A stretch of 36,061 nt of DNA from contig JASVEC010000177.1 of NCBI GenBank assembly GCA_030770535.1, positions 1 through 36,061 of the forward strand. Reading direction: 5' to 3'. Under the pieces are notes generated by a model. It did not search any database, was not told the DNA's origin, and saw only the letters and a program-made list of their open reading frames with translations. This document shows positions 6,596 to 36,060 of the stretch, piece by piece (positions within the stretch are counted from its first letter, which is position 1; every line of letters starts with the position of its first letter). The position numbers were made by a program, and so were the translations under genes. The DNA comes from Batkoa obscura (taxonomy: Eukaryota).

Positions 6596-7610
6596 TTAGA
6601 TAAAAAGAATTGTAATTATGATTATTTTGAAAATATTTTTACAATCTCAGCAAATCATTATTAAATTGACTTTATAAAAATAGTAAATCAAATAAATCAC
6701 AAAGTAATTAACAAAGTAATAATATAAGGTTGTAAATTTTATAGCTAAATTTAAATGATCATATATTAATTGATTTATAATGACCTATTATATAGTTTTG
6801 CATATTTTTAAGTATATTGCGTTATTTAAATATGATTATAAATTAAATAGTTATTATAAGGATAGAACATAAAGCTATGTAAAAAATATATACATTTGAA
6901 TAACACATTTATAATGCTTATAGCCTTTCCTTACTAACGACTTCACATTTATATTAAAATATTTTTTATTGCTAAATTTAACTCAGTTCTTTTATATATT
7001 ACCTATCTTTTATAATAAGTATTAACAATATTATTTTTGATAAGTTTAAATGTGGGAAAAGTTTAGTAAATCTAGATACAAAAACCATTAAGAAGATTCA
7101 AATAGTTTGCTATTAGGATACTTTATGCTTGGTTGTTTTAATGAGATAATGTTATAAATTAAGATCATATTGGAAGTAAAAAAATATCATTTTAAAGCTT
7201 CTGTAGAATAATATTATATTAAAATTAATTTACTTTAATAACATTATCTAAAAATAACTTGGGATAATAAAAATAAAGAACTGAGCTAAATAGAAGTTTG
7301 ATGTCATGAAATGTCACTTATTACAGAAATCGCTTTAAAGTTATACTTTAAAATCAACGGAGTCTAATTCTATATCTTTTTATTTATATCTTTAAATATA
7401 CTATTATTTTTATATTATTATCACTTTTCTTAATTGTTTATTTTAAAAGCCCCCTTGTTTTCATAATTCCGTCCATATGATAGTTTGTAATCTGTTACAT
7501 AATTCAAATTTACGGATAAAAATGATTTTGTTCTAATAGAGCTAGCTACCTTAACTTTATTTTAAAAAAACCCATAAAACTGACTTTTAATTTTTGATCA
7601 ATAAAATTAA

Positions 7611-7782
7611 TATGGGGATGTATTTTTGTGTTTAAGAATTTTACTAACAATTTTTCCACTCGATTAGTGCTTAAAAGATGGGAAAAGTAAAGCCAAAAAA
7701 ACACTTCTATATACAGAATGAAGCACTATTTGAGTGGAAAAATTGTTAGTAAAATTCTTAAACACAAAAATACATCCCCATA
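7611..7782. mobile_element. MITE copy (+, 7611-7711) followed by an inverted half copy (-, 7723-7782)
   Basis: Begins TATGGGGATGTATTTTTGTGTTTAAGAATTTTACTAACAATTTTTCCACTC and ends with its reverse complement. Confidence 0.88.
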
Positions 7783-8414
7783 TGTTTATTAACGTGCGAA
7801 TATAAAGCTTTGCTCAAAGTATTTTCTGATTCAATTCTTTTTTTTTTGATTCTGAAATAGGAACTCAGATTCAATAATTTTTTCATTTAAATAAAAGTAA
7901 GCTACAGTAAAAGGCACAACAGACTTTATTAAAATTATGCTATGTTAAATAAAACGTGGATGTCTCTTATTAATACCATATTTGGAAACAAATCTACCTC
8001 ATAAACGGCCATTAAAAATGACTAAAAAGATGTATAATTGTTTTAAAAAAATGCCAAGAATGTAAACTATTTTGCTATAGTATAATATAACCCTTAAATT
8101 ATATATATGTGATATGTTTTTATTTTTATAGTTAAAAAGATGTGTAAAGATAATTATATTTAAAAATGTATTTAAAATTTTAAAATCCAACTACTAATAA
8201 AGCATAACCATAACATGATGTTCAGTCTAGTTACTTTAACTTTTGAGGATATCATATGCGATAAAACAGTTTAGATAAGTTATATGAGGGTTGGTTCTGT
8301 AGATACTGAGTTAGGAGTCAAAATGAGATAAAAGAGAATGAAAAAGGGAGGGATATAAGACGTTATAACTTTGTTACCCAATTCAAATAAATAAATAACC
8401 CGCGTTAGACTTTA

Positions 8415-9276: not shown

Positions 9277-12129
9277 ATATGTAGTATAGTTATGAACTTT
9301 TTGTTGATTTTGTATAGATAAGGTTAGATTCGCAGCGGGATATTAAGCTGGGGTAATTCAGTCCAATGTAGTTTGTATATTTATATACTTAGGTTGATAG
9401 AAAACAAGGATAAGGTTGTTGATATATGGTGTTCTTAATATATACTACAGACAATAGTTAATTAAAAGGCTTTACGTGGTTTAATAAAGATTAAGTTTAA
9501 GGGAATAAAAATATGAATTCGCAAAAAGAAAGGAGACAGAATAGTATATATAAAATTGGATTATGTATAATGTATGGCAAATGTATTTAAAAATAGGTAT
9601 ATAAAATTTGAAACACTGTACACATAAAATCAGTCTTTCTTAGAATCAAAGAGAGAAATTGAAAGAAGTTAGGTTTATACAGACCAAAATTGGAAAAATA
9701 AAAAAGGGGTGGAAATGTAGGGTACAAAATATTGCAATTTTGATTGAGTATTGTTATAAAATTCGAGTTTAATTCTTTAAGTTAGGTTAATTTAATGGTT
9801 GAAATCTTGAAATCATTATTCATATTTTTGTTTATTCCTGATTGATTGGAATCAAAATAGAATGCTTTAATTGGCTGCTTTTGAATTTTAATAATTTTTC
9901 TACCAAGATTAAATAAGATAGAAGTATAAATTAGACAATATATTGCTACTTAAATCATTTTATTTATTATAACCTAAAAAACAATCAGTATAAAGGAATT
10001 TTACTACTTATTAGAACGGTATATTTAACTAATTAGAAAGAATCTCTACTATACTTTTAAAGTCATAAAATTATTAAATTTTTATTGATTTCTATGACCA
10101 CAATCTAGTCATTTGATTGACTTTGTTGTATCACTACTATTTAAAAATAATATTCAATTAAATTAATACATCATTTAAAATAGTATTTAGATAATAATTT
10201 GGAATATTTTAAACATGAATTTAAACCATATATTCTTTAATTTGATACACATTATACCTTGATCTTTTTGATCTACTTAATCATTTAAAATACTTCATCA
10301 TTAAGCTAAGCTTATTCTTATTCTATCTTTTCTTCTTATTCAATATTTTAATATAAGATACCTAACTTATAGCTACTACATTTAATGAGCACTCCATTCT
10401 TAAAATCAACTTGGATTTAATATTCATTGTCAAAATTGATGACGAATATTGTTAACAATTACTTTAATAAAGTCCATACTATATAATAAAACTAAAAACC
10501 ATAGCTGGTAAGATTTCAACAAGAACAAAGATATAAAAATTAAACAAACATCTTTAATTATATAAGCTTACTACAAAGTCATATACCTTTTCTACTAAAT
10601 TCGTTCTTTATTTCAACTTTGTTTTTCTTACAATAAAAGGTTATTTGAATTTGAAATATACAATGGGAGCATAACTTATTAAACCTGAAAATTCTTGAAT
10701 GAATTATATTTTAATACCGTTTAACTAAATTGGGTAATATGAGATATTCCCATAAAAACAGAAAATGTAAAAGTATAATGTCAAAAAAATATAAAGAAGC
10801 AGAAATCTAACCTGGAAGGATTTGATATTAGAGGAAGATCATGAAGAAAAAATATTACTAATACTAAAAGGGTGTAGCGTAAAATTTAATTACACTTGTC
10901 AAGTGACTTTGATAAGGAAAAGCATATTAATTATAAGTTTGAATATCAAATGGATTCATTCTCTGGTTGAAAAAAGATGTGACTTTAAGCTTTTTTACCT
11001 TTGAAAACCACAACATGTTATTATCCCTTTATTATTTATTTTTAGAAATGACGTAAGTTAGACACTGATAAGGTCAGCAAAAACCTGTTCAATATATTTC
11101 GCTAGAAAATAGGTTGTATAGAAGGTTATAAAAAATTTAATGTATACTATACTAAAGCATATGCTCATATATTATTGCCAAAAAGGGCTAAGATATATTT
11201 GTACTACATTAAAGTAAAACTATGTATGATTTTCGATGAAAATGCCATTGGCATTAATAACATTAAAAGAAAAACGTGATAGATGGAGCTTCAATAAAAT
11301 TTATTTATTTATAAATGTCACATTTAATAATGAACCTGTTAGATATGAAGGATAAATAAGAAAGGATAAGTTATTTAGGCACTTTAAGCTTTAATATTTT
11401 ATACATTAACCTTAATTTTTCATAAATCGAATACTGGATCATATTTTACATAGTTTAAATATATCTTCAAGGTCAACCTTAATTTTACTTTATATTGTAA
11501 AATAGTTGATATTATCTTTAAGTGATATAGCTTGAAACTATTTATTGTATAAAATTATTGATTATATTTAACATAATAACAGCAAATTTGTTAAAACATG
11601 TTAAAATTTTCAATAAACTCTTGATTATACTATTTGTACTATTTTACTATTTATACTATTTGAATGAGATTTTATTGTTATTAAACCATTTATGTAAAAA
11701 TACAAAGCTATAGCTTGGTCAAGAGAACTTTAGACTATAGATACAAAATTTACATAGTTTTATTCTATCCCTAGTACTATTACCTGAATCCAAATCTCAG
11801 AACTTGTTAACTATATTTTAACAAATTTCAAGGCTTCAAGTCTTGAATTGGAGATATTTCTTTTAATTTTATCACTTTTTCGATTTCTTAAATACTATTG
11901 AGTAGAAAAAATCCTGATAAATTTCTTAAAAAAACACCCTTAATTAATAAAAATGAAAATTTATCAGTAGACGATATACAAGAATTAGTATACTCATTTC
12001 TTTACTTTTTTACTATATACTTCTTTTAAACTCTAGCTATAAATTGCCTTTTTGATTTGTTATCAAAACTTTGTCAAGTATATTTAACAATAAGATATTC
12101 AGCTGTTGGGAATTTTTTTTAAGAATACA

Positions 12130-12225
12130 TATGGGGATGTATTTTTTTGCTCAAGAAGTTTACTAATAGTCTTCTCAAATAGGGCTTAAAAAAATGAAAA
12201 AATGAAATCAAAAAACATTCTTATA
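12130..12225 (+). mobile_element. MITE copy
   Basis: TATGGGGATGTATTTTT...AAAAACATTCTTATA with family core. Confidence 0.82.
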
Positions 12226-12960
12226 TTTTGTTCAAAGGCACTTTTTAAAGATTTTAGAAGCTTCAAAATAAGTACTTATATAATAAATAATATAAATTGT
12301 ATTATTACTTTCGTATTATATTTATAGTTGATAGATGGCTTTAGTATATTTGAGATTTAACTGTTGAGAACGGAACAGTCGTGTTATTTCAATAACCAAA
12401 ATTCATTATTTAATATATTGGGTATATTTGTAAAAACATAAAGTCTAGTTTGCATAATCATCATATAGAATGGCTAACTGTATGATTAACTTGCATAAAA
12501 TAAATCCAATCATTTAAGTTAAATTTGTTAATTACAAATATTAGTTATGATCGGAACCTCAAAACATTATTTTTGCATTTGAAATGAATTAAATTTGGGA
12601 CCTGCATATTTTGAAAAATCAATTTATTTAATGTGAGAACTTTGCTAGTATTTATTTTATAATCTATCTTATTTTATAGATTTTTTTTACAATTTTGCGC
12701 AAGTTTATCCCAATAAAACTATAGGTTGCAATAATAAGAAGCTTTTATTGGAAAAGCATGCTTATTTTGAACTAAAAGATAATCTTACATTTGTAATTAA
12801 TAATAGGTAGGAATGGTCTGCTGAATCGATTTCACTTTTTTATCTAATTTTTAAAACTTAAATTATGAACAAAACAACCAATAAAACAATACTAAAATAA
12901 AACTCAATTTTTCAAGCATTTTATATTAAATTTTTGCTTAAAATTATAAAACAAACTCTT

Positions 12961-13524
12961 TATTAGAAAGCAAAGGTATCTGACAGTTTTAATTATTTTA
13001 TAATTTATGTTACAAGTTAGTGGAATTTGTATTGAATTTAACACAAATTCATGGATTAGCAAGGCTTTTACCAATATAATATATATATTGATATTAATCA
13101 AAGTTGTATGCAAATAGATACATCTTTCTACAAAACTTTATTAAAAATATATATTATTAACTCCTTCATAGTCAACATTGAAGATTTAGTATCAAATAAA
13201 CAGATTATTTTAATGTTATAATTGTATTATCAATATATCATTAAGTTGATAGATAGCTGTATAGGAGGAAATGTTGGCTTTAAAACTATAGTTGATTATT
13301 ATATAATATAAATAATATAATAGTCTTTATTTATTAACTTAGCTGTTAATAACTTAAACAATATTAAGATTTAATAATTAATTTTTATCACTTAATAAAA
13401 TACTCAATAAAATACTCAATAAAATACTCAATAAAATACTCACTTACTTAGTAAGTATTGAAACTTTTAGATCTTGTAATGTTTTTATGAAATAAACTGA
13501 GGTTGATTTTTTAATTTACTAAAT
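12961..13524 (+). repeat. Direct repeat copy A (~550 bp; pairs with 21592-22134)
   Basis: 13001-13524 matches 21635-22134 apart from about four substitutions and 4 vs 2 copies of the 12-mer AATAAAATACTC. Confidence 0.95.
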
Positions 13525-13562
13525 ATTATATAACATAATTTATTGCTATATTTAATAAAATA

Positions 13563-13666
13563 TATAGGAGTGTATTTTTTCGTTTAAGAATTTTGCTAAT
13601 AATCTTTCCACTTAAATAGCGCTTAAAAAGTGGAAAAGTAATGAAGCCAAAAAAAACACTCCCATA
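13563..13666 (+). mobile_element. MITE copy
   Basis: TATAGGAGTGTATTTTT...AAAAACACTCCCATA. Confidence 0.88.
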
Positions 13667-13861
13667 TGTATATTTTCTATATTATTTGACAAAAAAATCA
13701 AAATCAACTTTTAAAGTATTACTTATTTCATAAACTTATATATAATATAAAAACTTTCCAAATTTAGAATAATTCCCTATATCTGCTTATATATTAATTT
13801 TTATAAACTTTTTAAATAAAAGCTTTTTAAATATTAAAGTAATTGCATAACTTTATATATG

Positions 13862-14557
13862 TAAGGATATATTTTTGTGTTTGAGGATTTGATTTTACTA
13901 ACAATCTTTCCGCTTAAATAATGTTTAAAAAATAAAAAAATAATGAAATCAAGAAATACCCCTCCTATATGTTAAATCATAATTTGAGTGGAAAGACTGT
14001 TAGTAAAATTGCTAAACACAAAAATACATCCCCATTTAAATAACTAGTTTTATTTTCAAGCTAGATAAAAAAATTTGATTAAAATTTTGAATTTAATTAC
14101 ATATGGGGATGTTTTTTTTGGTTTCATTACTTTTCCACTTTTTAAGCCCTGTTTGAGCGGAAAGATTGTTAGTAAAGTTCTTAAACAAAAAAATACATCC
14201 CCATATGGAGATGTTTTTTTGACTTCATTACTTTCTCCACCTTTTAAGCCACTATTTGAGTAGAAAAATCGTTAGTGAAATTCTTAAACATAAAAACACA
14301 TCCTCATATTAAAAACTTATAAAGTTGAAAACTTGAACCCAAAAATTAGATTGGTTTCTAAATAAATTTAAATATTATTTACTTTAATTATTATAAAAGA
14401 GTGTTTAGGAATTCTACTAACAATCTTTCCACTCAAATTATGATTTAACATATAGGAGGGGTATTTCTTGATTTCATTATTTTTTCATTTTTTAAACATT
14501 ATTTAAGCGGAAAGATTGTTAGTAAAATCAAATCCTCAAACACAAAAATACGCCCTC
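13862..14557. mobile_element. MITE cluster: + copy 13862-13969, - half 13983-14035, two tandem - copies 14102-14205 and 14204-14308, + fragment 14401-14438, - copy 14451-14557
   Basis: All carry the family core or TIR. The tandem pair shares one TA (CCCCA-TA-TGGAG). Confidence 0.88.
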
Positions 14558-16200
14558 GTTTATTTACATAAAGGTAATACTTTTAGATAATAAATGCATT
14601 AGAAATAAAGGACAAATTAAGTGATGACAAGTTGTAGATATTAATTTTAGTATTCATATAATAAAGCTCGTTTTCACAAATCAAATACCATTGGAGACCA
14701 TTAAAACATTCAAGGTTAATAAAATGTTAAGTTTAGTCTTTGCATTGTTTAATACTACGTTACACAGTAGTTTCTATTTTCTCAAGCGCTATATTTTGAA
14801 ACTACTGTATAAGATATAATTATTCATTACATACAGTTTCAAATATTATGTATTAGTTCTTGAAATTATACATTTTAATATCCAATAAATTCCTGATAAT
14901 ACTATTTGATTAATTAATTAAAATTTGCCACACTATAGCATTTTTCTAAAAATACAAAACTAAAGAATCTTATCAAGCATATAGCCATAAGTCGCTTGAT
15001 AGGAGCATCAGCTATATATAAAAAACTTTAATACCTTAATACCCCTTAAATACTTCTACTTCAGCTCCAATACTTGATAATTTTCTAATAAGTATTATTC
15101 AATAAAACATCGTGGGTTTAACTTCAAATCAATAAAAATTAAAGCTTTATGACAAAAAATGTATGGAATTTTTGGCCCAAGTATCACTTAAGGCTTTTTT
15201 ATACAGTGCTAACAGAAGTTATCCCATTTCAAATATTGATTTGAGGGATTATAGTTAATTTAATACAAAACCTATAAGAGTAATGTTTAATATAGGCATT
15301 AATATAGTATAGTTAAATACAACCGCAAAAAAATGGGTGCATTTCAACTATTAGTTGCTGAGAAATGAACATCTAAAGTAGTTTTTTAATTTTTAAGACA
15401 ATTTTTATTAGCGCCGCAATCTACTATTGGTTTTGTTAGCAAAGCTTCATTTAATATGCTTGAATAATAAAACGTTCAAACGTTTAAAAAGCTATAGAAT
15501 TTCAATTAGTATTATAAATGATGCACACTATATAATTACAAATCACAACATTACATTGAAGGTAAAAGATGAAGTTAGGATATTAAATATAAAATTTTAA
15601 CCTTCAAGGTGTTATTACTTGTAAAGAAGTTACCAAGCAAAACCAAGTAAAAGTGATTTTTTTAAAAACCTTGATTGAGTCAAAAAAACCCTAGGTATTC
15701 ATTTTTAGTATAAAATAAATATTATAAGTGAGAACAGATATTAAGGAGTAATAGGGCGAGGAAAGAGACAAAACAAACTATACTATTATTGAAAGAGATG
15801 TGATTTCTCGAGAGCTGAGCTTTGTCCTAGATAATTTATACTTGGTAAACAAATATTCTAACTCGTAAATTTGAGGCTATGTATAGGATAAGCTTGCGGC
15901 TGTAGTGCTGATTGATATAGGATTATTGATAGAAGGTTTAATATAATATATATGAGTACTTCACAAGCCTGCGGTTAAAACAAAGACTTTGCTTGGAATG
16001 TTTACTTGTGACTTAGTTAAAAGATTGTTTTGGTTGGATTTGGCAAATGCTGTATTTATTAAAGGCAAAAAATAGAATTAAAGATAGTTTAAAATTACAT
16101 TATTTTAAGAAGTTTAATATTTTTATTTAAATTCAAAATTTAATATACGATGCAACATAATGTAACTGTTAATAATTTGTCATGTAGGAGAAATAAAAAG

Positions 16201-17451
16201 TTATAACTTTGAGCCATTATAGGAAGTTATTTGTGACATTATATAGTTGATATCCTTCATAGTAATATCCGAGTTCAATGTAAATCTTAGACAAGGGGCG
16301 TTTATTGGTGTAGTTGGATAAATAAAACATGAAGCAAATACATTTCTCTCTAGCAGATATTTGTTCATTTTCACCATACTTTTTTCTGATGGAAACACCA
16401 AGCTAACAATTGGTGAAGGAATATCGGATTTGGTATAATTTGCACCACAACGCTCCAAAGAATTTCTAAACTCTTTTGAGATATTCAAAAGATGTTCTCG
16501 CTCTTTATCCATATCTATTATCCTATGTAATATTTTATGCATTCGGATCAAATCATAATTCATTATACAAGTACTAAATATATTAGGCATTGAATGTTCT
16601 CTTGCATAGTCGATAAGTAGTTTATCCCCAGCTATAACTCCTGCTCTTGCACAGAAAGCTTTTGCTAAACTAGCGGTAACGATATTGACTTCCTTGTAAT
16701 CAAACAAACTGGAATATCCTCTGCCTTTATGTCCATATAATCCTATTCCATGTGATTCGTCAACCACTAGAAAGCAACCGTATTTCTTTTTGATGCTTAT
16801 TATATCTTTAATAGGCGCGAAGTCTCCTGTTACACTATATAAACTTTCAACTATAATGATACCATGACCATTTTTTTTAATCATCTCTTCCAACTCATTA
16901 ACGTCATTATGCTTAAATATGTGTGTTTTTGGTCTAACAAAACCCAAGCCATCTCTAAAGGATCCATGTAGAAGATTATCTATGTACACATTGGTTTTAC
17001 TGTTGCAAAAACCTTGGATAAGGCCAGCATTAGCTGCATACCCTGATTGTGCAATCATGGAAGCTTCTTTGCCCATATATTCTGCTAGTTGCTTCTGAAA
17101 TAAACCTTGTGGCCCATCATCGGATATAAAAGCGCTTGACATAACTACTTCAGAGTCATGGTTAGTTACAGCTACAGCTTTTGCGATACAGAGATAATCG
17201 TTATCACCAACGTTGATACTATCTTTAGTAAGTGGTGGTCTTACTATAAGATCTCTTATTGCGCCGTTACCCCCTGGTGTTCTAGTTTTGAAATATTTTT
17301 TGGCTTTATCTGTAATTTCTAATTCCATGACATTTGGTACAATAGCTGCGGATTCTACTGCTTTTTCTTTTCCATTAAACGATATAGGAATATGGTTAGA
17401 ACTCTTATTAATCTGGTTCAACTTATCCTGGCTTTTGGATTTCTTAATCAT
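16201..17451 (-). CDS. PLP-dependent alpha-oxoamine synthase (aminotransferase class I/II fold), CqsA/LqsA (alpha-hydroxyketone autoinducer synthase)-like, with C-terminal PTS1 (SKL)
   Basis: Intronless 416-aa ORF with NDYL, MSSAF, QSGYAANAGLIQ, NVYIDxxxHxS, FKHN, GIIIVESLYS..G.FAP, LVVDESH, TASLAK(PLP-Lys)AFxxRAG, PNIFS and VFASxFxxPxT...LRFTLNSD. These match recalled Vibrio CqsA motifs in order. Ends -GSKL*. Confidence 0.88.
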   Translation of the reverse strand: MIKKSKSQDKLNQINKSSNHIPISFNGKEKAVESAAIVPNVMELEITDKAKKYFKTRTPGGNGAIRDLIVRPPLTKDSINVGDNDYLCIAKAVAVTNHDSEVVMSSAFISDDGPQGLFQKQLAEYMGKEASMIAQSGYAANAGLIQGFCNSKTNVYIDNLLHGSFRDGLGFVRPKTHIFKHNDVNELEEMIKKNGHGIIIVESLYSVTGDFAPIKDIISIKKKYGCFLVVDESHGIGLYGHKGRGYSSLFDYKEVNIVTASLAKAFCARAGVIAGDKLLIDYAREHSMPNIFSTCIMNYDLIRMHKILHRIIDMDKEREHLLNISKEFRNSLERCGANYTKSDIPSPIVSLVFPSEKSMVKMNKYLLERNVFASCFIYPTTPINAPCLRFTLNSDITMKDINYIMSQITSYNGSKL

Positions 17452-19067
17452 TTTATATTGGTTTGGGTTAAAATTTATAGTTATAGTTATAGTATTCGAC
17501 TTATTAGATGATTTTTAGTAAAATATAGTAATACGCTTATAAAACAATATAAATAATTTACAAAGGATGGTTTATCTGCTTCATTAAAATTGTGAGGGCT
17601 TTTATACTAGTTTTTATATTTCAGGTACATCACCAATAAAATAATTTAATCAACATTTGACATTATTAAATTTCCTGTTATCGTAATATAAACTATCATT
17701 TTTAATTTTATAAAATTTCCCTAATAAGTAAAAGTCCGGAGTACTATTTTATAAGTTAAATTGGTAAAAAAATAGCTTAAGTATAAATGTTTTCACCCTG
17801 AAACATTAGCTAAAAAGATGTAAAATTATTTATAGCTTTATATTTTCTAATCTTCCTCCAAACTAATGATAATTTTTATTAAGGGATAAAGACTCACTAT
17901 CCTTTATTTACGTATGTACACTGAATTTTAAAATGAACAAAGGTAATGCAAATTAATCTAAGCAATTATCCATTTATTGTTTCATGTTTCAACATAAAGA
18001 TTTAAACATCTTTCATTATTACAACAAAATAGCAATAAAATGATTATTAATTTTAATATAATATCTAAGTTTATGCCGCTATATTAGAGCTGATTTCTAT
18101 AGCTTAAAATAAATGTGGTTAAGCTTTGTGATAGTGTAAATAAAAAATAGATTAAAATAGTTATGATTGTTTCTAAAATTTCATCACTCGTATAATTTTT
18201 GAATCGTCTTAATAAATTAGGTACAGTTTGTTTATCCAAATAACATCAGATTACAGCCGTTGCAACTCTTCCACAACTTTTTTAGTCATGGCTTTTATAA
18301 TCAACTTCTCTAGATAGCCAATTTTTTAAAGCCTAATATACATTTTGCCCAAAGTTATAGCACAAATGCCATTCTCAAATGAGCAGCCAAATAGGTCATA
18401 AAGAAGTTGTAATAGCTATATTAAGTAAGAAACTAGTTTTTATAGTGTAATTATTTGAGGTTGATTTACGCCATCGTAGTTTTTACTCCTAAAGTTAATA
18501 AAAAGCGGAGATCACTCCAAAAGTGGTAAAATTATTTTAAAACACATGATAGTGGATTTTAATTATAAGTATTTAATCAGATCAGTTTAAGCACGTAATG
18601 ATATCGATCCAAATAAAAGTTTCAAAAAAATTTATTATTAATATGGTTTATTTTATTTTTCAAGATGTGTTATTATAATTTTATTTAAGGTCATTATTAA
18701 TTACTATTTCATCCCCTTTTCATTATTGTAATTTTTTTAAATTTTAGGAGTAAAACTCTATGTTGCTGTCAATCAATCTTAGAAAAAAATTAATTTTTAG
18801 GTTGAAGTTAATCGCTATTACATCATTCTAACTTGTTTGCTAAATCAAAGTTAAACCTGATGCTTTAAATATGCTAAGTTGGGGTAAAAATTCTAGGCTA
18901 TTAAGCTATTTTCCCCAAGAATAATGCACTTAGGATCCTACCTTAACAAAGTTAGCTATTTATTTTTAATGGATCGTTATCCATGTCTACAAAATTATAC
19001 TATAAATTAAAGGCAAGAAAGCTATTTAAAATGTTTTAAAGGAATATTCTAGAAGAGTGAGGAAAGG

Positions 19068-19122: not shown

Positions 19123-21364
19123 ATGTCTAAATCATCTTCTGCCTTTATAAACAATCGTCAGCGCTTTGATGCTCCTACTTTTGATTCAGATGAAGTCAAT
19201 CAATTGCTGGATTTTCATGACCGTGAAAACAGAATAAGATTAAAAGCATTTATAGAGAAAAATATTGAGTTATTTGCTCCAAAGTTTAATTGTTTACAAC
19301 ATGAAAAGCAAGAGCGAGTATTCGAACAATTAAGAGCAATTGCAAAAGGAAAGTTTATTGACGTTGCTGATTTTACTAAAAACCCTTTAAATATATTAGC
19401 TGGTAAGTTTAATTTTCATCTTTTATGGTAATATATAAATAATTGAGTAGTTCATGAAGTTACAAGTTTTCCACCTGAATCAATAACCACCAAAATTACC
19501 GTACATTATAACCTTGTAATATACTTTATGTTTCTTCATTATTAACTAACACCTTATTTAGTTTATTGGAACTTTAGTTAAACTTGGTACTGAACGCCAT
19601 AACGAGATTTTAAAAGAAGTTAATAATTTTGATGCAACTGGTTGCTTTGCACTTACTGAGCTAGGGTATGGTAATAATGCTATTGAAATGGAAACCACTG
19701 CTATTTATGATGAAAAAACTCAAGAATTCATTATCAATAGCCCAACAGTAAAGAGTCAAAAATTCTGGATAAGTAATGGAGCTAAGCATGCAAAATATGC
19801 AATAGTGTTTGCTCAGCTCGAGGTTAAAGGAAAGCAAGAAGGGATTCATTGCTTCATTGTAAAAATTCGTGATGGCCCAAATAATGAAGTATGTCCAGGG
19901 GTAACGATTCGTGAAATGGGCAATAAGATTGGCCTAGATGGCGTGGATAGTGCAGTATTGAAATTCGATCATGTTAGGTATAGTACAATTTCTTTTTTTA
20001 ATATATTTTTTAAAAAAATTTGTCTAGAACCCCAAGGATTAATTTATTAAATCGTTACTCTGATGTTCTACCTAACGGTACTTATACTTCTGAAATTGTA
20101 GGACGGAGAAAGTAATATATATATATATATACATATTTAAAAACTAACATATATAGCCGGTTTGGTAAAGTTGCAGACCAGCTATTAACTGGTCGTTTGT
20201 GTATGTCCGCCGTGAGCTTATCAGGGGCAAAATTAGCCCTAACGATAGCTTTAAGATATTCAGCAACTCGACTTGCTGGGGGTCGTACAGGAAAATCAGA
20301 TACCCCTATCCTTGAATATCAACTTCAACAAAAAGCTTTAATACCGCTTTTGGCACGTACTTTTGCACTGAATTTTGGCTTAAATTATACAAAGAGGGTG
20401 TGGGCTCACCCTGAACAATATTCTTATTCAGAAATAATTCGTTTGTGTTGTACAATTAAACCTTTAGTAACTTGGAATGCTGAACGTTGCGGTTCTATTG
20501 GTCGTGAAAGATGTGGTGGACAAGGATATCTACAGCATTCTGCCTTTACTGCCATTATTGGCTCAGCTCATGCCGTAAAATTCTACTATTTTTTAAATTT
20601 TATTTTCTTAATTTTTAAATTTAGTGTATTACTGCAGAAGGGGATAATGTTGTTTTAATGCAAAAAGCAGCTAAAGAATTACTTTCTGATATTAAGCAGA
20701 AGAAATTCAATTTCTCTCCTTTCTACAACCGTGGTGCACCCCAGAGCTGGAAAGTTGATGATTTTAATAGTTTAGTAGACCTTATGAATTTAAGATTTAT
20801 AAATCGTGTTAAACAAGTAAATTTAGAAAGTTTGTTATAAACTATATTAATACTTTATTAGCTTGGTGCAATTACTATTCAGAAAAGAAAGGAAGGAAAA
20901 GATATCTTTCAAATCTGGATGAAGGAAGAATCCGAGCTCGTTCAGGACTTGTCTCGGACCTATGGTGAATTCTTTAGCTTACAAGAATTTGCTTGTGTTA
21001 TTCAAGATGAAAAAGTATCAAAAGCTACAAGGTGAGCCAATATAATTATATAACTCAAATCGATACTAAAAGTTTTTATTTTAGAGGTGCCTTAAAAGAG
21101 TTATGTAAAGTTTATATGCTTTCTACTTTAGAAGCTGACTTTGGCTATTTAATGAGTAATGAATTTATTACTCCTGCTAATGCATGTCGATTATCTCAAT
21201 TATTGAAGCAACAAATAGAACTTGTTTCAAAGCAAACATTGACTTATCTAGATGGATTTGGTATTCCAGATGGATTGATTCTTTCACCAATTGCTAATGA
21301 TTGGGAGACTTATAGTATTGGGGACTTTAAGGGAGAAATTAATTTAAGAAAACCCAAACTATAA
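19123..21364 (+). CDS. Peroxisomal acyl-CoA oxidase
   Basis: Spliced motifs [62 protein letters not shown] and [10 protein letters not shown] (catalytic Glu). About 7 short introns. C-terminus RKPKL* is PTS1-like. Confidence 0.93.
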
Positions 21365-21374
21365 GCAGTATGGG

Positions 21375-21479
21375 TATGGGGATGTTTTTTTTGGGCTCAT
21401 TATTTTTTCCATGTTTTGAGCGCTATTTGAGTAAAAAAATTGTTAGTAAAATTCTTGAATACAAAAACACATTCCCATA
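21375..21479 (-). mobile_element. MITE copy 10 bp after the acyl-CoA oxidase stop
   Basis: TATGGGGATGTTTTTT...AAAAACACATTCCCATA. Confidence 0.88.
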
Positions 21480-21591
21480 TTTTTATATTGATTTCTAGAC
21501 TAATTTTATCCGTTTGAGTTTTAATCATTTACATTTTACCATTAAATTTTTAAGCTGTTTAATATATAGGTATGTCTTTTTTTGAAAATTC

Positions 21592-22134
21592 TATTAAAAA
21601 GCAAAAGAATCTGATACAGTTTTAAATTATAAAATAATTTATGTTACAAGTTAGTGGAATTTGTATTGAATTTAACACAAATTCATGGATTAGCAAGGCT
21701 TTTACCAATATAATATATATATTGATATTAATCAAAGTTGTATGCAAATAGATACATCTTTCTGCAAAACTTTATTAAAAATATATATTATTAACTCCTT
21801 CATAGTCAACATTGAAGATTTAGTATCAAATAAACAGATTATTTTAATGTTATAATTGTATTATCAATATATCATTAAGTTGATAGATAGCTGTATAGGA
21901 GGAAATGTTGGCTTTAAAACTATAGTTGATTATTATATAATATAAATAATATAATAGTCTTTATTTATTAACTTAGCTGTTAATAACTTAAACAATATTA
22001 AGATTTAATAATTAATTTTTATCACTTAATAAAATACTCAATAAAATACTCACTTACTTAGTAAGTATTGAAACTTCTAGATCTTGTAATATTTTTGTGA
22101 AATAAACTGAGGTTGATTTTTTAATTTACTAAAT
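21592..22134 (+). repeat. Direct repeat copy B (pairs with 12961-13524)
   Basis: Same sequence and orientation as copy A, about 8.6 kb downstream. Confidence 0.95.
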
Positions 22135-22370
22135 GAAGGTGTTTTTTTGGCTCCATTACTTTTTCTATCTTTTAAGTGCTATTTGAGTGGAAAGATTATT
22201 AGTAAAATTCTTAAACAAAAAATACATTTCCATATATTTTTACTATTAGCATTTAAGTACCAATTTTATTATATAGGGATATATATATTTAAGATTTTAT
22301 TAAGAATTTTTCCACTCAAATAGTGCTTAAAAAAATGAAAAAGGTGACAAAACCAAAAAATATTCCCATA
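22132..22370. mobile_element. Two MITE copies head-to-head (- 22132-22234; + 22272-22370)
   Basis: Family core on opposite strands. Confidence 0.82.
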
Positions 22371-31647: not shown

Positions 31648-32048
31648 TTCTTTAATCTATAATATGGTTAAAATTAGAAAATAGAATTTTCTGGGCTATG
31701 AATGAAAATTTATGGGACTTTATAAATTTGATCCGAGGATTGAAATTTTGGGCAAAGATGTTATTCTGGATTTGCTTTTGAGAATAAGTTAAATTCATTA
31801 TAATCCAAGTCTTCGATTTTGGTTAACAATAATGATAATAAATCAAATATAGATACTATGAAATTTTTTTGTGATTAATAGCTTTTTTTTTACTACCAAT
31901 TAGTTTAAACATGATTTTTCTTACCTACCTTGAAGTTATAATCAAATAAAAAAATTATTATATACAATATAACTCTGGTCCAAATTGTTGATTTAGTCAT
32001 GCTTTAGTTTTCTCACTTCATTCTCTTAAAAGGCTTATTTTTAAAGCA

Positions 32049-32145
32049 ATGGGATATTTCGTTTAATAATTTTACTAACAATCTTTCCGCTCAAATAGCG
32101 CTTAAAAAATGGAAAGGGTAATGAAACCGAAAAAATATTCTCATA
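32049..32145 (+). mobile_element. MITE copy
   Basis: ATGGGATATTT...TTTTACTAACAATCTTTCCGCTCAAATAGCGCTTAAAAAATGGAAA...ATTCTCATA. Confidence 0.85.
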
Positions 32146-33406: not shown

Positions 33407-34877
33407 ATGAAACTTCAACTTACATGGATAATAATTGCTCTTTTATCAGGTCAAATTGCTTCTTTAGACCCAAAAGCAAAGATGTGAAAAATGAATCTTC
33501 AATAAAAGATAAAAATACTGTAAAAGAATTAGCAAACAATAAAGAGCCTCAAGTTTCTCCTCAATTTGGCGCTCAAGGTCAATTTGGTGCTCAAGACTCA
33601 TTTGGTGGCCATGCTCAATTTGGTGAAGCTCAAGGGCAGTTTAGCGGAATGGATCAATTTGGAGGAGGTCAAGACCAATTCGGGGGAGCTCAAGGACAGT
33701 TTGGAGGAGGCCAAGGGCAGTTTGGCGGAATAGATCAATTTGGAGGAGGTCAAGACCAATTCGGAGGGGCTCAAGGACAATTTGGAGGAGGTCAAGACCA
33801 ATTCGGGGGAGCTCAAGGACAATTTGGAGGAGGTCAAGGACAGTTTGGCGGGATAGATCAATTTGGAGGAGGCCAAGACCAATTCGCAGGGGCTCAAGGA
33901 CAATTTGGAGGAGGTCAAGACCAATTCGGAGGGGCTCAAGGACAATTTGGAGGAGGTCAAGACAATTCGGCGGGATAGATCAATTTGGAGGAGGTCAAGA
34001 CCAATTCGGAGGGGCTCAAGGACAATTTGGAGGAGGTCAAGACCAATTCGGAGGGGCTCAAGGACAATTTGGAGGAGGTCAAGACCAATTCGGGGAGGTC
34101 AAGGACAATTTGGAGGAGGTCAAGGACAATTTGGAGGAGGTCAAGACCAATTCGGAGGGGCTCAAGGACAATTTGGAGGAGGTCAAGGCAATTCGGAGGA
34201 GGTCAAGGACAATTTGGTGGTCAAGGACAGTTTGGAGGAGCACAAGGCCAATTTGGTGGTGGACAAAATCTTCCAAGAGGGTCCACCAAACCTCCACCAA
34301 ACGGTTTAGTAAGTCCAAACCAGCTTCCACCTAGGATTTTAAAATTCTTTGGCTCTTATGGAAACAAAGGAGGTCTTATTGATGTGTTCACTGAGGATGA
34401 TGTACCAAAAAGTATATGGGATGGCAAAATTGGAAACCGCCCAGGTAATAATTAATCCACTATTTTAATACTGTATTAACATATTTAGATGGAACTTATC
34501 AAAGAAACCGCCTATCAAGATCACTTTATATTGGAAAGATTAGAATTCCTTATGGTGCAAGAGGCTGCTCAACTAATATTTTTGAATGGGCTTTCAAACA
34601 TACTCTTACTCATCTTACCCAAGATATTATCGATCTTTTAAACATGTCGCTCCATGGAGATATTAATAGTTTAGCTATCTGGTTGTCAGAATTCGGATTC
34701 ATGCATAGTGTTGGACTTATTGAGGATGTCTTTAATCTAGTTAACCCAGTGAATCTTGCCAATACCGTTTTTCAATTTGCTGGTGGTAAAAAAGAAGGTT
34801 TTTGTCTTGCAGGTACTGTAGAGTCTTTTGAAAATTACAGACGTAAAAAAGCTTTAGGATTAAGGAATGTTACTTAG
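33407..34877 (+). CDS. Secreted Gly/Gln/Phe-rich repeat protein with an unrecognised C-terminal domain; four apparent -1 frameshifts
   Basis: ATG 33407 gives signal peptide MKLQLTWIIIALLSGQIASL. The frame shifts at ~33475, ~33961, ~34093 and ~34189. Intron 34445-34488 joins in frame to an exon containing ORF 34644-34877. Confidence 0.75.
33562..34266 (+). repeat. Coding 21-bp minisatellite, unit CAA-GGA/GAC-CAA-TTY-GGA-GGR-GGT/GCT (Q-G/D-Q-F-G-G-G/A)
   Basis: About 30 tandem heptapeptide units, with higher-order blocks restarting at (M/I)DQFGG. Confidence 0.95.
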
Positions 34878-34996
34878 CTAGTAAACTAAACTTACTAAGA
34901 ATTTTAAATAAAATAGTTCAAAGTTATTCAAGACTATTCATGAATATTAATAGTTTTTAAATATTGTTTAAACATCAAACTTTAAGATCAACAATA

Positions 34997-35098
34997 TATG
35001 GGGATATATTTTTTTATTCAAGAATTTTACTAACAATCTTTCTGCTCAAATAGTGCTTAAAAAATGGAAAAATAATGAAACTAAAAAACAGCCCCATA
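34997..35098 (+). mobile_element. MITE copy abutting the GFA stop codon
   Basis: TATGGGGATATATTTTT...AAAAAACAGCCCCATA. Confidence 0.88.
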
Positions 35099-35099
35099 T

Positions 35100-35603
35100 T
35101 TATTTGAAATTCTTTTTATGCCAATTTTCAATTGAATCTGTTGGATAATCATTATATAGGCTACATTTACTAGAGTTAGAATCTGGAATAGAAACCCATG
35201 AGGCTTTAGAGTTTAATTTTATATGGCAAATGTTGTAATCACCTTCGTTTGGCAACTCTGAATCAATAGCAGAAGCGAAAGGATAAAAATAGTCTTTATA
35301 TGTCGGATCATATGCCCAAAGGTTGGAGCTACAATTACCACAAAAATAACGAGTGTTCCCACTAACTTTCTGCTTCTCTGTTGAATCGTTATAGTTCATG
35401 ATAGCTTTGTAACCTTTGAGTTCTATACCTTTATTTACTTCATATTCTAAGGTTGAGTATGCTCCCATTATATTTATTGCATAACCTCCACCGCCTTGTA
35501 CTTTTCGACATATGGAACAATAGCATCGATTATATGGGACTGGAGTACTACTAGTGAATGTAAACTTTATTCCTTTACAGTGACAAGATCCTTCCAATTT
35601 CAT
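35100..35603 (-). CDS. GFA (glutathione-dependent formaldehyde-activating)/CENP-V/Mss4-like zinc protein
   Basis: Intronless 167 aa. GSCHC, CYCSICRK and RYFCGNCSS motifs, plus FASAIDSELP. Confidence 0.92.
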   Translation of the reverse strand: MKLEGSCHCKGIKFTFTSSTPVPYNRCYCSICRKVQGGGGYAINIMGAYSTLEYEVNKGIELKGYKAIMNYNDSTEKQKVSGNTRYFCGNCSSNLWAYDPTYKDYFYPFASAIDSELPNEGDYNICHIKLNSKASWVSIPDSNSSKCSLYNDYPTDSIENWHKKNFK

Positions 35604-35963: not shown

Positions 35964-36060
35964 TATGGGGCTGTATTTTTTTAAGAGTTTTACTAACAAT
36001 CTTTCTACCTAAGTAGCACTTAAAAAATGAAGAGTAACGAAATCAAAAAAAGATCCCATA
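35964..36060 (+). mobile_element. MITE copy
   Basis: TATGGGGCTGTATTTTT...AAAAAAGATCCCATA. Confidence 0.85.

What the first reader, a model, noticed from the sequence alone, without database searches (positions are those of the whole stretch)
16201..17451. Bacterial quorum-sensing autoinducer synthase (CqsA/LqsA)-like gene in a fungal genome, retargeted to the peroxisome
Seen: an intronless 416-aa ORF among intron-rich fungal genes, ending in SKL and with a ~50-aa N-terminal extension. Knowledge: it is an alpha-oxoamine synthase. Its motifs (MSSAF, QSGYAANAGLIQ, NVYID, GIIIVESLYS, VDESH, TASLAKAFxxRAG, VFxSxFxxPxT, RFTLNSD) follow Vibrio CqsA/Legionella LqsA as I recall them. They do not follow BioF, ALAS, KBL or SPT, which typically have GSG(A/G)SR and (G/S)TxxKAxGxxGG. 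CqsA condenses a medium-chain acyl-CoA with SAM/aminobutyrate to give CAI-1 precursors. Inference: an ameliorated horizontal acquisition that may let the fungus make CAI-1/LAI-1-like amino- or hydroxyketones, for signalling to bacteria or animal hosts or as a volatile cue. I know of no characterised fungal member.
Basis: partly seen in the sequence, partly recalled or inferred. Interest (0 to 1): 0.93.

Follow-up and report, generated by a model that had tools for sequence, protein, structure and literature searches.

The report
Fungal peroxisomal relative of bacterial CqsA
A fungus carries among its own chromosomal genes a relative of the Vibrio quorum-sensing enzyme CqsA, likely of old bacterial origin, with a predicted peroxisome-targeting tail shared by relatives in other fungi, and it likely turns peroxisomal fatty acyl-CoA into a CAI-1-type ketone signal.

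Summary
The ORF is real: intronless, 416 aa, ending in SKL, with host-like codon use. In 3 of 3 DNA-type runs one contig joins it to the neighbouring intron-containing acyl-CoA oxidase gene, so it is not a chimera. Its last 375 aa are 99% identical to a Neoconidiobolus thromboides protein. Profile, structure and tree all place it with CqsA-like enzymes and away from bacterial BioF, KBL, ALAS and SPT.

Three corrections. (1) It is not a one-off acquisition. It belongs to a mostly eukaryotic clade (Conidiobolus, Mortierella, Aspergillus, Emericellopsis, nematode-trapping fungi, bdelloid rotifers, unnamed sequences); 18 of 32 tested clade proteins end in a strict PTS1, against 0 of 84 canonical bacterial homologues. 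(2) It is not nested in Vibrio CqsA or LqsA. Its closest named bacterial kin are orphan Legionella paralogues, it scores below the family cut-off (325 vs 428 bits), and two acyl-pocket residues are acidic. (3) The N-terminal extension is 41 aa and unconserved.

The product is untested; a CAI-1-type ketone is the best guess (about 0.5). Ten library searches found no paper describing this clade.

The parts
16201..17451 (-). Intronless CqsA-like alpha-oxoamine synthase ORF, 416 aa (conserved core from M42)
16201..17328 (-). Conserved 375-aa core; two substitutions from N. thromboides KAI9292565.1; PLP lysine K264 = CqsA K236
17329..17451 (-). 41-aa unconserved N-terminal extension; translation uncertain
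16204..16212 (-). C-terminal SKL, predicted PTS1; strict PTS1 in 18 of 32 clade proteins tested
17600..17606 (-). TATAAAA about 150 nt upstream of the first ATG (putative TATA box; inference from sequence)
19123..21364 (+). Divergently transcribed, intron-containing acyl-CoA oxidase gene ending PKL; functional link not shown

Best explanation
The gene is a chromosomal fungal gene of a mostly eukaryotic side branch of the CqsA family, whose PLP enzyme is predicted to enter the peroxisome by its SKL tail and there likely joins a medium-chain acyl-CoA from beta-oxidation to SAM (or a small amino acid), releasing a CAI-1-type amino- or enamino-ketone that would act as an outward chemical cue. Shown: intact ORF in fungal context, PLP and catalytic residues, CqsA-type sequence signatures, tree position, clade-wide PTS1. 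Predicted: CqsA-like fold. Inferred: peroxisomal location, bacterial origin before Neoconidiobolus and Conidiobolus split, acyl-CoA supply from beta-oxidation. Guessed by analogy: SAM as the amino donor, chain length, conversion to an alpha-hydroxyketone, and a signalling role towards bacteria or small animals.
For: Best NCBIfam match is the alpha-hydroxyketone synthase model, 325 bits against 219 for bioF; the same model ranks first for 12 of 12 clade proteins scanned. Best PDB sequence match is V. cholerae CqsA, E 3.6e-58, next family 9.9e-34. The AlphaFold model of the 375-aa N. thromboides form (pLDDT 92) matches CqsA best: Z 47.5, rmsd 1.9, 367 aligned; KBL Z 45.5; E. coli BioF Z 41.1-41.7. 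ML tree of 74 rows: inside the CqsA-like group at 100/100, in a 33-row clade at 95/99 and a 26-row mostly eukaryotic clade at 98/95. Grouping with four bacterial BioF-type rows is rejected, p 1.3e-53. It keeps 16 of 29 CqsA-diagnostic columns and 4 of 22 columns diagnostic of other AOS. Of nine CqsA acyl-pocket residues listed in PMC3285556, F79, I263, F264 and P348 are identical and V32, C346 and A349 have conservative swaps. Strict PTS1 in 18 of 32 clade proteins, 0 of 84 canonical bacterial CqsA/LqsA-type and 0 of 65 other AOS, with further SKL/ARL/AKL/CKL ends. The divergent neighbour is an acyl-CoA oxidase. CAI-1 is reported to attract C. elegans (PMC7679379), and two nematode-trapping fungi carry clade members (their lifestyle is my recalled knowledge).
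Against: Score is below the curated cut-off (325 vs 428; 11 of 12 clade proteins below). 13 of 29 CqsA-diagnostic columns are not kept. Pocket residue F257 is E285, a change found in 94% of the 32 clade proteins, and H30 is D67 (R66 by MAFFT), so the acyl substrate may not be a plain C8-C12 chain. About 8-9 residues of the N-terminal helix are missing. No sensor kinase was found among the 13 ORFs of 100 aa or more in the window, and the Legionella sister genes lack lqsR/lqsS neighbours in 2 of 2 loci read. SAM supply inside peroxisomes was not examined. The rotifer members lack PTS1 (0 of 3). PMC7679379 also reports that cqsA mutants still attract worms. Conservation of the oxidase neighbour in other fungi could not be tested.
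Confidence: 0.5

Rival explanations
1. Same origin and location, but the clade has changed substrate: the acidic D67/E285 pocket takes a polar-ended or shorter acyl-CoA or another amino acid, and the product is a specialised metabolite or a way to free CoA from beta-oxidation intermediates, not a CAI-1 mimic.
For: Clade-wide F257-to-E and H30-to-D changes; below family cut-off; long well-supported stem to the clade (0.25); no receptor neighbours; AOS enzymes share fold and active-site residues yet use different substrates (PMC13080023).
Against: Seven of nine listed pocket positions stay identical or conservative, and the Q106, S233, R241 and F345 signatures are kept; one clade member, P0130, passes the family cut-off (445.9).
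Confidence: 0.33
2. It stands in for BioF: a peroxisomal KAPA synthase for biotin synthesis that uses pimeloyl-CoA made with the neighbouring acyl-CoA oxidase.
For: Fungal and plant BioF are PTS1 peroxisomal enzymes and beta-oxidation feeds the pathway (PMC3713238 passages); divergent acyl-CoA oxidase neighbour; MAFFT places R66 on the column where 91% of the other AOS have Arg.
Against: BioF-type G75/R77/G81 segment absent, 4 of 22 diagnostic columns kept; HMMER, BLAST and hhalign put D67, not R66, on that column; E285 would repel a carboxylate (inference); AU test rejects grouping with bacterial BioF; A. fumigatus has a canonical BioF listed in PMC3713238, so at least there the clade gene is extra; two paralogues in Conidiobolus. 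No fungal BioF sequence was in my trees, and the host genome could not be searched for its own bioF.
Confidence: 0.1
3. The segment is bacterial contamination or a mis-join.
For: Intronless, bacterial-type protein; repeats flank the region.
Against: One contig of about 5.19 kb spans the gene and the start of the oxidase gene in 3 of 3 DNA-type runs from three studies, at the depth of neighbouring contigs (one may be the window's source); GC3 0.28 lies within the neighbours' 0.12-0.30; relatives in Conidiobolus at about 50% identity.
Confidence: 0.01

Closest known systems
Vibrio CqsA (CAI-1 synthase; PDB 2wk7/2wk8; NCBIfam NF005526)
   Same: Fold (Z 47.5), PLP lysine, catalytic His/Asp/Arg, MSxxF, QSG, TASLAK, RAG and IFS signatures; 33% identity over 369 aligned positions to V. 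metoecus CqsA.
   Different: Eukaryotic host, PTS1, no CqsS neighbour, below family cut-off, F257 to E and H30 to D in the acyl pocket, short N-terminal helix deletion; grouping with Vibrionaceae CqsA rejected.
Legionella LqsA (lqsA beside an LqsR-like gene; label recalled)
   Same: Same family; same signatures.
   Different: Separate clade (AU p 1e-4). The closer Legionella kin are uncharacterised orphan paralogues (L. jamestowniensis, L. clemsonensis, a plasmid of Legionella sp. D16C41; 37% identity).
Janthinobacterium JqsA
   Same: Same family by its authors' account (PMC3566124 passages).
   Different: JqsA lies beside jqsS/jqsR. JqsA itself was not in my trees; Massilia and Collimonas homologues stood in and fall outside the window gene's clade.
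Fungal and plant BioF (peroxisomal KAPA synthase)
   Same: AOS fold, PTS1, peroxisomal acyl-CoA substrate (PMC3713238).
   Different: BioF-type motifs absent and grouping with bacterial BioF rejected; no fungal BioF sequence was available for direct comparison.

Membership tests
Alpha-oxoamine synthases (fold-type I PLP) | PLP lysine and conserved His, Asp, His, Arg | tested here: met
   K264, H162, D231, H234, R389 align with CqsA K236, H133, D202, H205, R358; K236 as PLP lysine from PMC3376566
Alpha-oxoamine synthases (fold-type I PLP) | AOS fold over the whole chain | tested here: met
   Model of the 375-aa form: Z 47.5, rmsd 1.9, 367 aligned to 2wk7
CqsA/LqsA equivalog (NF005526) | Score above curated cut-off of 428 bits | tested here: not met
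   325.2 bits, though best of all NCBIfam models
CqsA-like enzymes (broad group) | One clade with CqsA/LqsA to the exclusion of BioF, KBL, ALAS, SPT-like rows | tested here: met
   100/100 in the 74-row tree
CqsA/LqsA equivalog (NF005526) | Nested within characterised Vibrio CqsA or LqsA clades | tested here: not met
   AU p 3.4e-48 and 1e-4 on a 31-row subset
CqsA/LqsA equivalog (NF005526) | Hydrophobic acyl pocket H30, V32, F79, F257, I263, F264, C346, P348, A349 (PMC3285556) | tested here: inconclusive
   4 identical, 3 conservative, 2 acidic
CqsA/LqsA quorum-sensing system | Cognate CqsS/LqsS sensor kinase linked to the synthase | tested here: not met
   None among the 13 window ORFs of 100 aa or more scanned; whole genome not held
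CqsA/LqsA equivalog (NF005526) | Condenses SAM or aminobutyrate with C8-C12 acyl-CoA | not testable with these tools
   Needs an enzyme assay
BioF (KAPA synthase) | GSGxSR-type segment and other non-CqsA diagnostic columns | tested here: not met
   4 of 22 columns kept; MSSAF in place of the segment
BioF (KAPA synthase) | One clade with bacterial BioF | tested here: not met
   AU p 1.3e-53
BioF (KAPA synthase) | One clade with fungal BioF | not tested
   No fungal BioF sequence was recognised among the proteins returned by my searches
Peroxisomal matrix proteins (PTS1) | C-terminal [SAC][KRH][LM], conserved among homologues (consensus recalled) | tested here: met
   SKL; 18 of 32 clade proteins vs 0 of 84 and 0 of 65 controls
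Peroxisomal matrix proteins (PTS1) | Import shown in cells | not testable with these tools
   Needs GFP localisation

The most novel reading that the evidence does not exclude
Fungi of three phyla, with bdelloid rotifers and unnamed eukaryotes, hold the first eukaryotic alpha-hydroxyketone autoinducer synthases: a bacterial quorum-sensing enzyme moved to the peroxisome, fed by beta-oxidation, that makes a true CAI-1/LAI-1-class signal to steer bacteria or lure nematodes and insects.
Probability: 0.3. Interest if true: 0.9.

Novelty: new variant of a known kind. Interest (0 to 1): 0.72.

Why it matters
In the papers I read, alpha-hydroxyketone synthases are described only from bacteria, linked to a sensor kinase. 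A receptor-less, PTS1-tagged eukaryotic branch would be a direct route for fungi to make or mimic a bacterial signal, or a new peroxisomal C-C bond-forming branch off beta-oxidation. It is found in insect-associated, nematode-trapping and soil fungi (lifestyles recalled), and it is one small intronless gene, so product and location can be tested quickly. The clade-wide acidic pocket change also bears on CqsA chain-length specificity, which PMC3285556 calls not understood.

Tried and rejected
Whole-genome search for a native bioF, a receptor or further copies: no genome held. No listed run is on record as RNA. Run X4 (RNA is a guess; its oxidase contig skips intron sequence) has a low-depth contig over 16426-16851 and coverage at 17474, upstream of the first ATG; this is only a weak hint of transcription, and the transcript start is unresolved. 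Genomic context of fungal homologues: the metagenome scan returned bacterial-type loci and one short rotifer-like contig among its 79 loci, so synteny with the oxidase gene was not tested. Giant-virus origin of the unnamed PTS1 proteins: two IMG/VR scans gave only one phage-like contig; their hosts remain unknown. ESM Atlas gave bacterial CqsA-type clusters first and nothing on eukaryotic range. Earlier scan findings: none by sequence or words. PTS2 in the extension: not seen by eye. Literature: searches listed no paper on a fungal or eukaryotic CqsA homologue; PMC7466969 and PMC10386755 hold no occurrence of 'autoinducer' or 'quorum'; the supplements of PMC7466969, which may list horizontally acquired genes, could not be read. 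The primary CqsA structure and mechanism papers were not read; their content comes second-hand.

Full report
Observation. Window 16201-17451 (-) is a single open frame of 416 aa ending NGSKL. Residues 42-416 differ at two positions from Neoconidiobolus thromboides KAI9292565.1, which the database starts at M42, so the host is that species or a close relative. The extension is 41 aa and is not shared by the fungal homologues aligned. It may still be made: 40 open codons arise by chance in 2.3-2.7% of local non-coding sequence, and the first ATG has an AAA context and a TATAAAA about 150 nt upstream.

It is part of the fungal chromosome. Neighbours carry eukaryotic domains and introns: acyl-CoA oxidase (PF02770, PF22924, PF01756; 19123-21364, divergent, ending PKL), DUF3591 (TAF1-like; name recalled), RNA polymerase I RPA2, a glycosyltransferase and GFA. 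In 3 of 3 DNA-type runs from three studies, one contig covers 14513 to about 19691, spanning the gene and the start of the oxidase gene, at depths 24.5, 43.5 and 458.6 against about 20-29, 35-46 and 428-466 for neighbouring long contigs (one run may be the window's source). GC3 is 0.28 against 0.12-0.30 in 11 neighbouring coding stretches, and a codon-adaptation score of 0.58 lies within their 0.54-0.83. Evidence for transcription is weak: one run guessed to be RNA has a low-depth contig over part of the ORF.

Family. The best NCBIfam model is the alpha-hydroxyketone autoinducer synthase NF005526 at 325 bits, below its cut-off of 428; bioF gives 219. The best PDB sequences are V. cholerae CqsA, E 3.6e-58, against 9.9e-34 for the next family. 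An AlphaFold model of the 375-aa form (pLDDT 92) aligns best to CqsA (Z 47.5, rmsd 1.9, 367 residues), ahead of KBL (45.5) and E. coli BioF (41.1-41.7) among the 1000 chains re-aligned. Against 84 bacterial CqsA/LqsA-type proteins and 65 other AOS proteins, it keeps 16 of 29 CqsA-diagnostic columns and 4 of 22 columns diagnostic of the others (the 84 were chosen by similarity to the query, and the 65 are mostly bacterial BioF-type).

A eukaryotic clade, not a lone gene. Three homologue searches and one search of 50% representatives returned named members in Conidiobolus coronatus (two paralogues, about 50% identical), three Mortierella, seven Aspergillus species, Emericellopsis atlantica, Dactylellina cionopaga, Drechslerella dactyloides and three Adineta rotifers, plus unnamed assembly proteins. 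In a 74-row IQ-TREE analysis (LG+G4, no mixture model; a chosen subset of the hits) the gene lies in the CqsA-like group (100/100), is sister to the Conidiobolus pair (100/99), and falls in a 14-row clade holding all named fungi (98/82), a 26-row mostly eukaryotic clade (98/95) and a 33-row clade (95/99) that adds orphan Legionella paralogues and three unassigned or MAG proteins. The 14-row fork was weaker in other runs: 93 in FastTree with 15 rows, unresolved in the quick tree. On a 31-row subset, AU tests reject grouping the gene with bacterial BioF (p 1.3e-53) and the fungal rows with Vibrionaceae CqsA (3.4e-48) or with LqsA-type proteins that lie beside an LqsR-like gene (1e-4). The clade sits among bacterial sequences, so its ultimate origin is inferred to be bacterial. 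The direction between Legionella and eukaryotes is not settled; PMC3376566 notes that Legionella carries genes likely acquired across kingdoms. Whether the patchy fungal spread reflects loss or fungus-to-fungus transfer was not tested.

Peroxisome. A strict PTS1 ends 18 of 32 clade proteins tested (the misses include fragments, near variants such as NKL and TKL, 3 rotifer and 3 Legionella-type proteins), against 0 of 84 and 0 of 65 controls. Six more SKL/ARL/AKL/CKL ends appear among the 18 sequences first shown or added. The tails differ in sequence and length, which points to selection on the signal (inference). PTS1 does not by itself favour the CqsA reading, because fungal and plant BioF are also PTS1 enzymes fed by beta-oxidation (PMC3713238).

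Mechanism. CqsA joins SAM and C10- or C8-CoA to give an enamino-ketone that is converted to CAI-1 (PMC3376566 section 4.2; PMC9516700). The window protein keeps the PLP lysine and catalytic residues. Of the nine acyl-pocket residues listed in PMC3285556, four are identical, three are conservative, and two become acidic: F257 is E285 in 94% of the 32 clade proteins, and H30 is D67 by HMMER, BLAST and hhalign, R66 by MAFFT. The most likely working is therefore CqsA-type chemistry on a peroxisomal acyl-CoA (0.5), with a real chance that the pocket change altered the substrate (0.33) and a smaller one of BioF replacement (0.1). No receptor gene lies in the scanned window ORFs or beside the two Legionella orphan loci read, so any signal would be aimed outward or read by another receptor. 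CAI-1 is reported to attract C. elegans, although the same paper finds that cqsA mutants still attract worms (PMC7679379).

Known or new. JGI/IMG auto-labels some clade members 'CAI-1 autoinducer synthase', but ten full-text searches listed no paper describing a fungal or eukaryotic CqsA homologue; the library lacks most subscription journals. What I saw of papers: passages of PMC3566124, PMC9516700, PMC3713238, PMC6148460, PMC3285556, PMC7679379, PMC13080023, PMC7466969 and PMC10386755; passages and section 4.2 of PMC3376566; listings only for the rest; no supplements. I file it as a CqsA-like enzyme of an undescribed, predicted peroxisomal eukaryotic subfamily, not as a member of the CqsA/LqsA equivalog. 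Verdict: new variant of a known kind, interest 0.72.

Noticed in passing
window 12987-13524 and 21621-22134: Two copies of a roughly 0.5-kb direct repeat (98% over 300 nt, 96% over 111 nt) with LTR-like ends bracket exactly the CqsA-like gene and the acyl-CoA oxidase gene, 8.6 kb apart. Raised depth suggests more copies elsewhere, so the bracketing may be chance.
   Followed up: partly
window 7609-7783, 12124-12270, 13557-14585, 21386-21480, 22142-22370, 32036-32145, 34991-35100, 35976-36057: A high-copy family of short elements with inverted ends (MITE-like), some nested, between the genes.
   Followed up: no
L001 5366-6499 (IMGVR_UViG_3300025769_014894): An AT-rich phage-like contig carries an intact CqsA-like gene right after its DNA polymerase-like gene; the same protein cluster has 7 members. 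A phage-borne alpha-hydroxyketone synthase would be worth its own look.
   Followed up: partly
L091 4968-6176; L169 1354-2697; P0293, P0294: Orphan CqsA-like paralogues in Legionellaceae: 4 matches below the cut-off against 28 of 205 genomes with one above it; two genomes hold both kinds. One lies on a plasmid, one is broken by a stop.
   Followed up: partly
P0012, P0019, P0025, P0026, P0416 (Adineta ricciae, A. vaga, A. steineri): Bdelloid rotifers carry several clade members without PTS1 and often with N-terminal extensions; their sisters are two unnamed PTS1-bearing proteins.
   Followed up: partly
P0131 (MGE3921269.1): A clade-adjacent protein from a Gammaproteobacteria MAG ends in SRL, a PTS1-like tail; chance, mis-binning or host-directed targeting not told apart.
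   Followed up: no
P0129 (802 aa), P0148 (1195 aa): Apparent fusions: a CqsA-like domain behind a second AOS-like domain, and behind a long N-terminal region that looks membrane-bound.
   Followed up: no
window 33424-34240 (+): A Gly/Gln/Phe-rich low-complexity ORF built of 21-nt tandem units.
   Followed up: no
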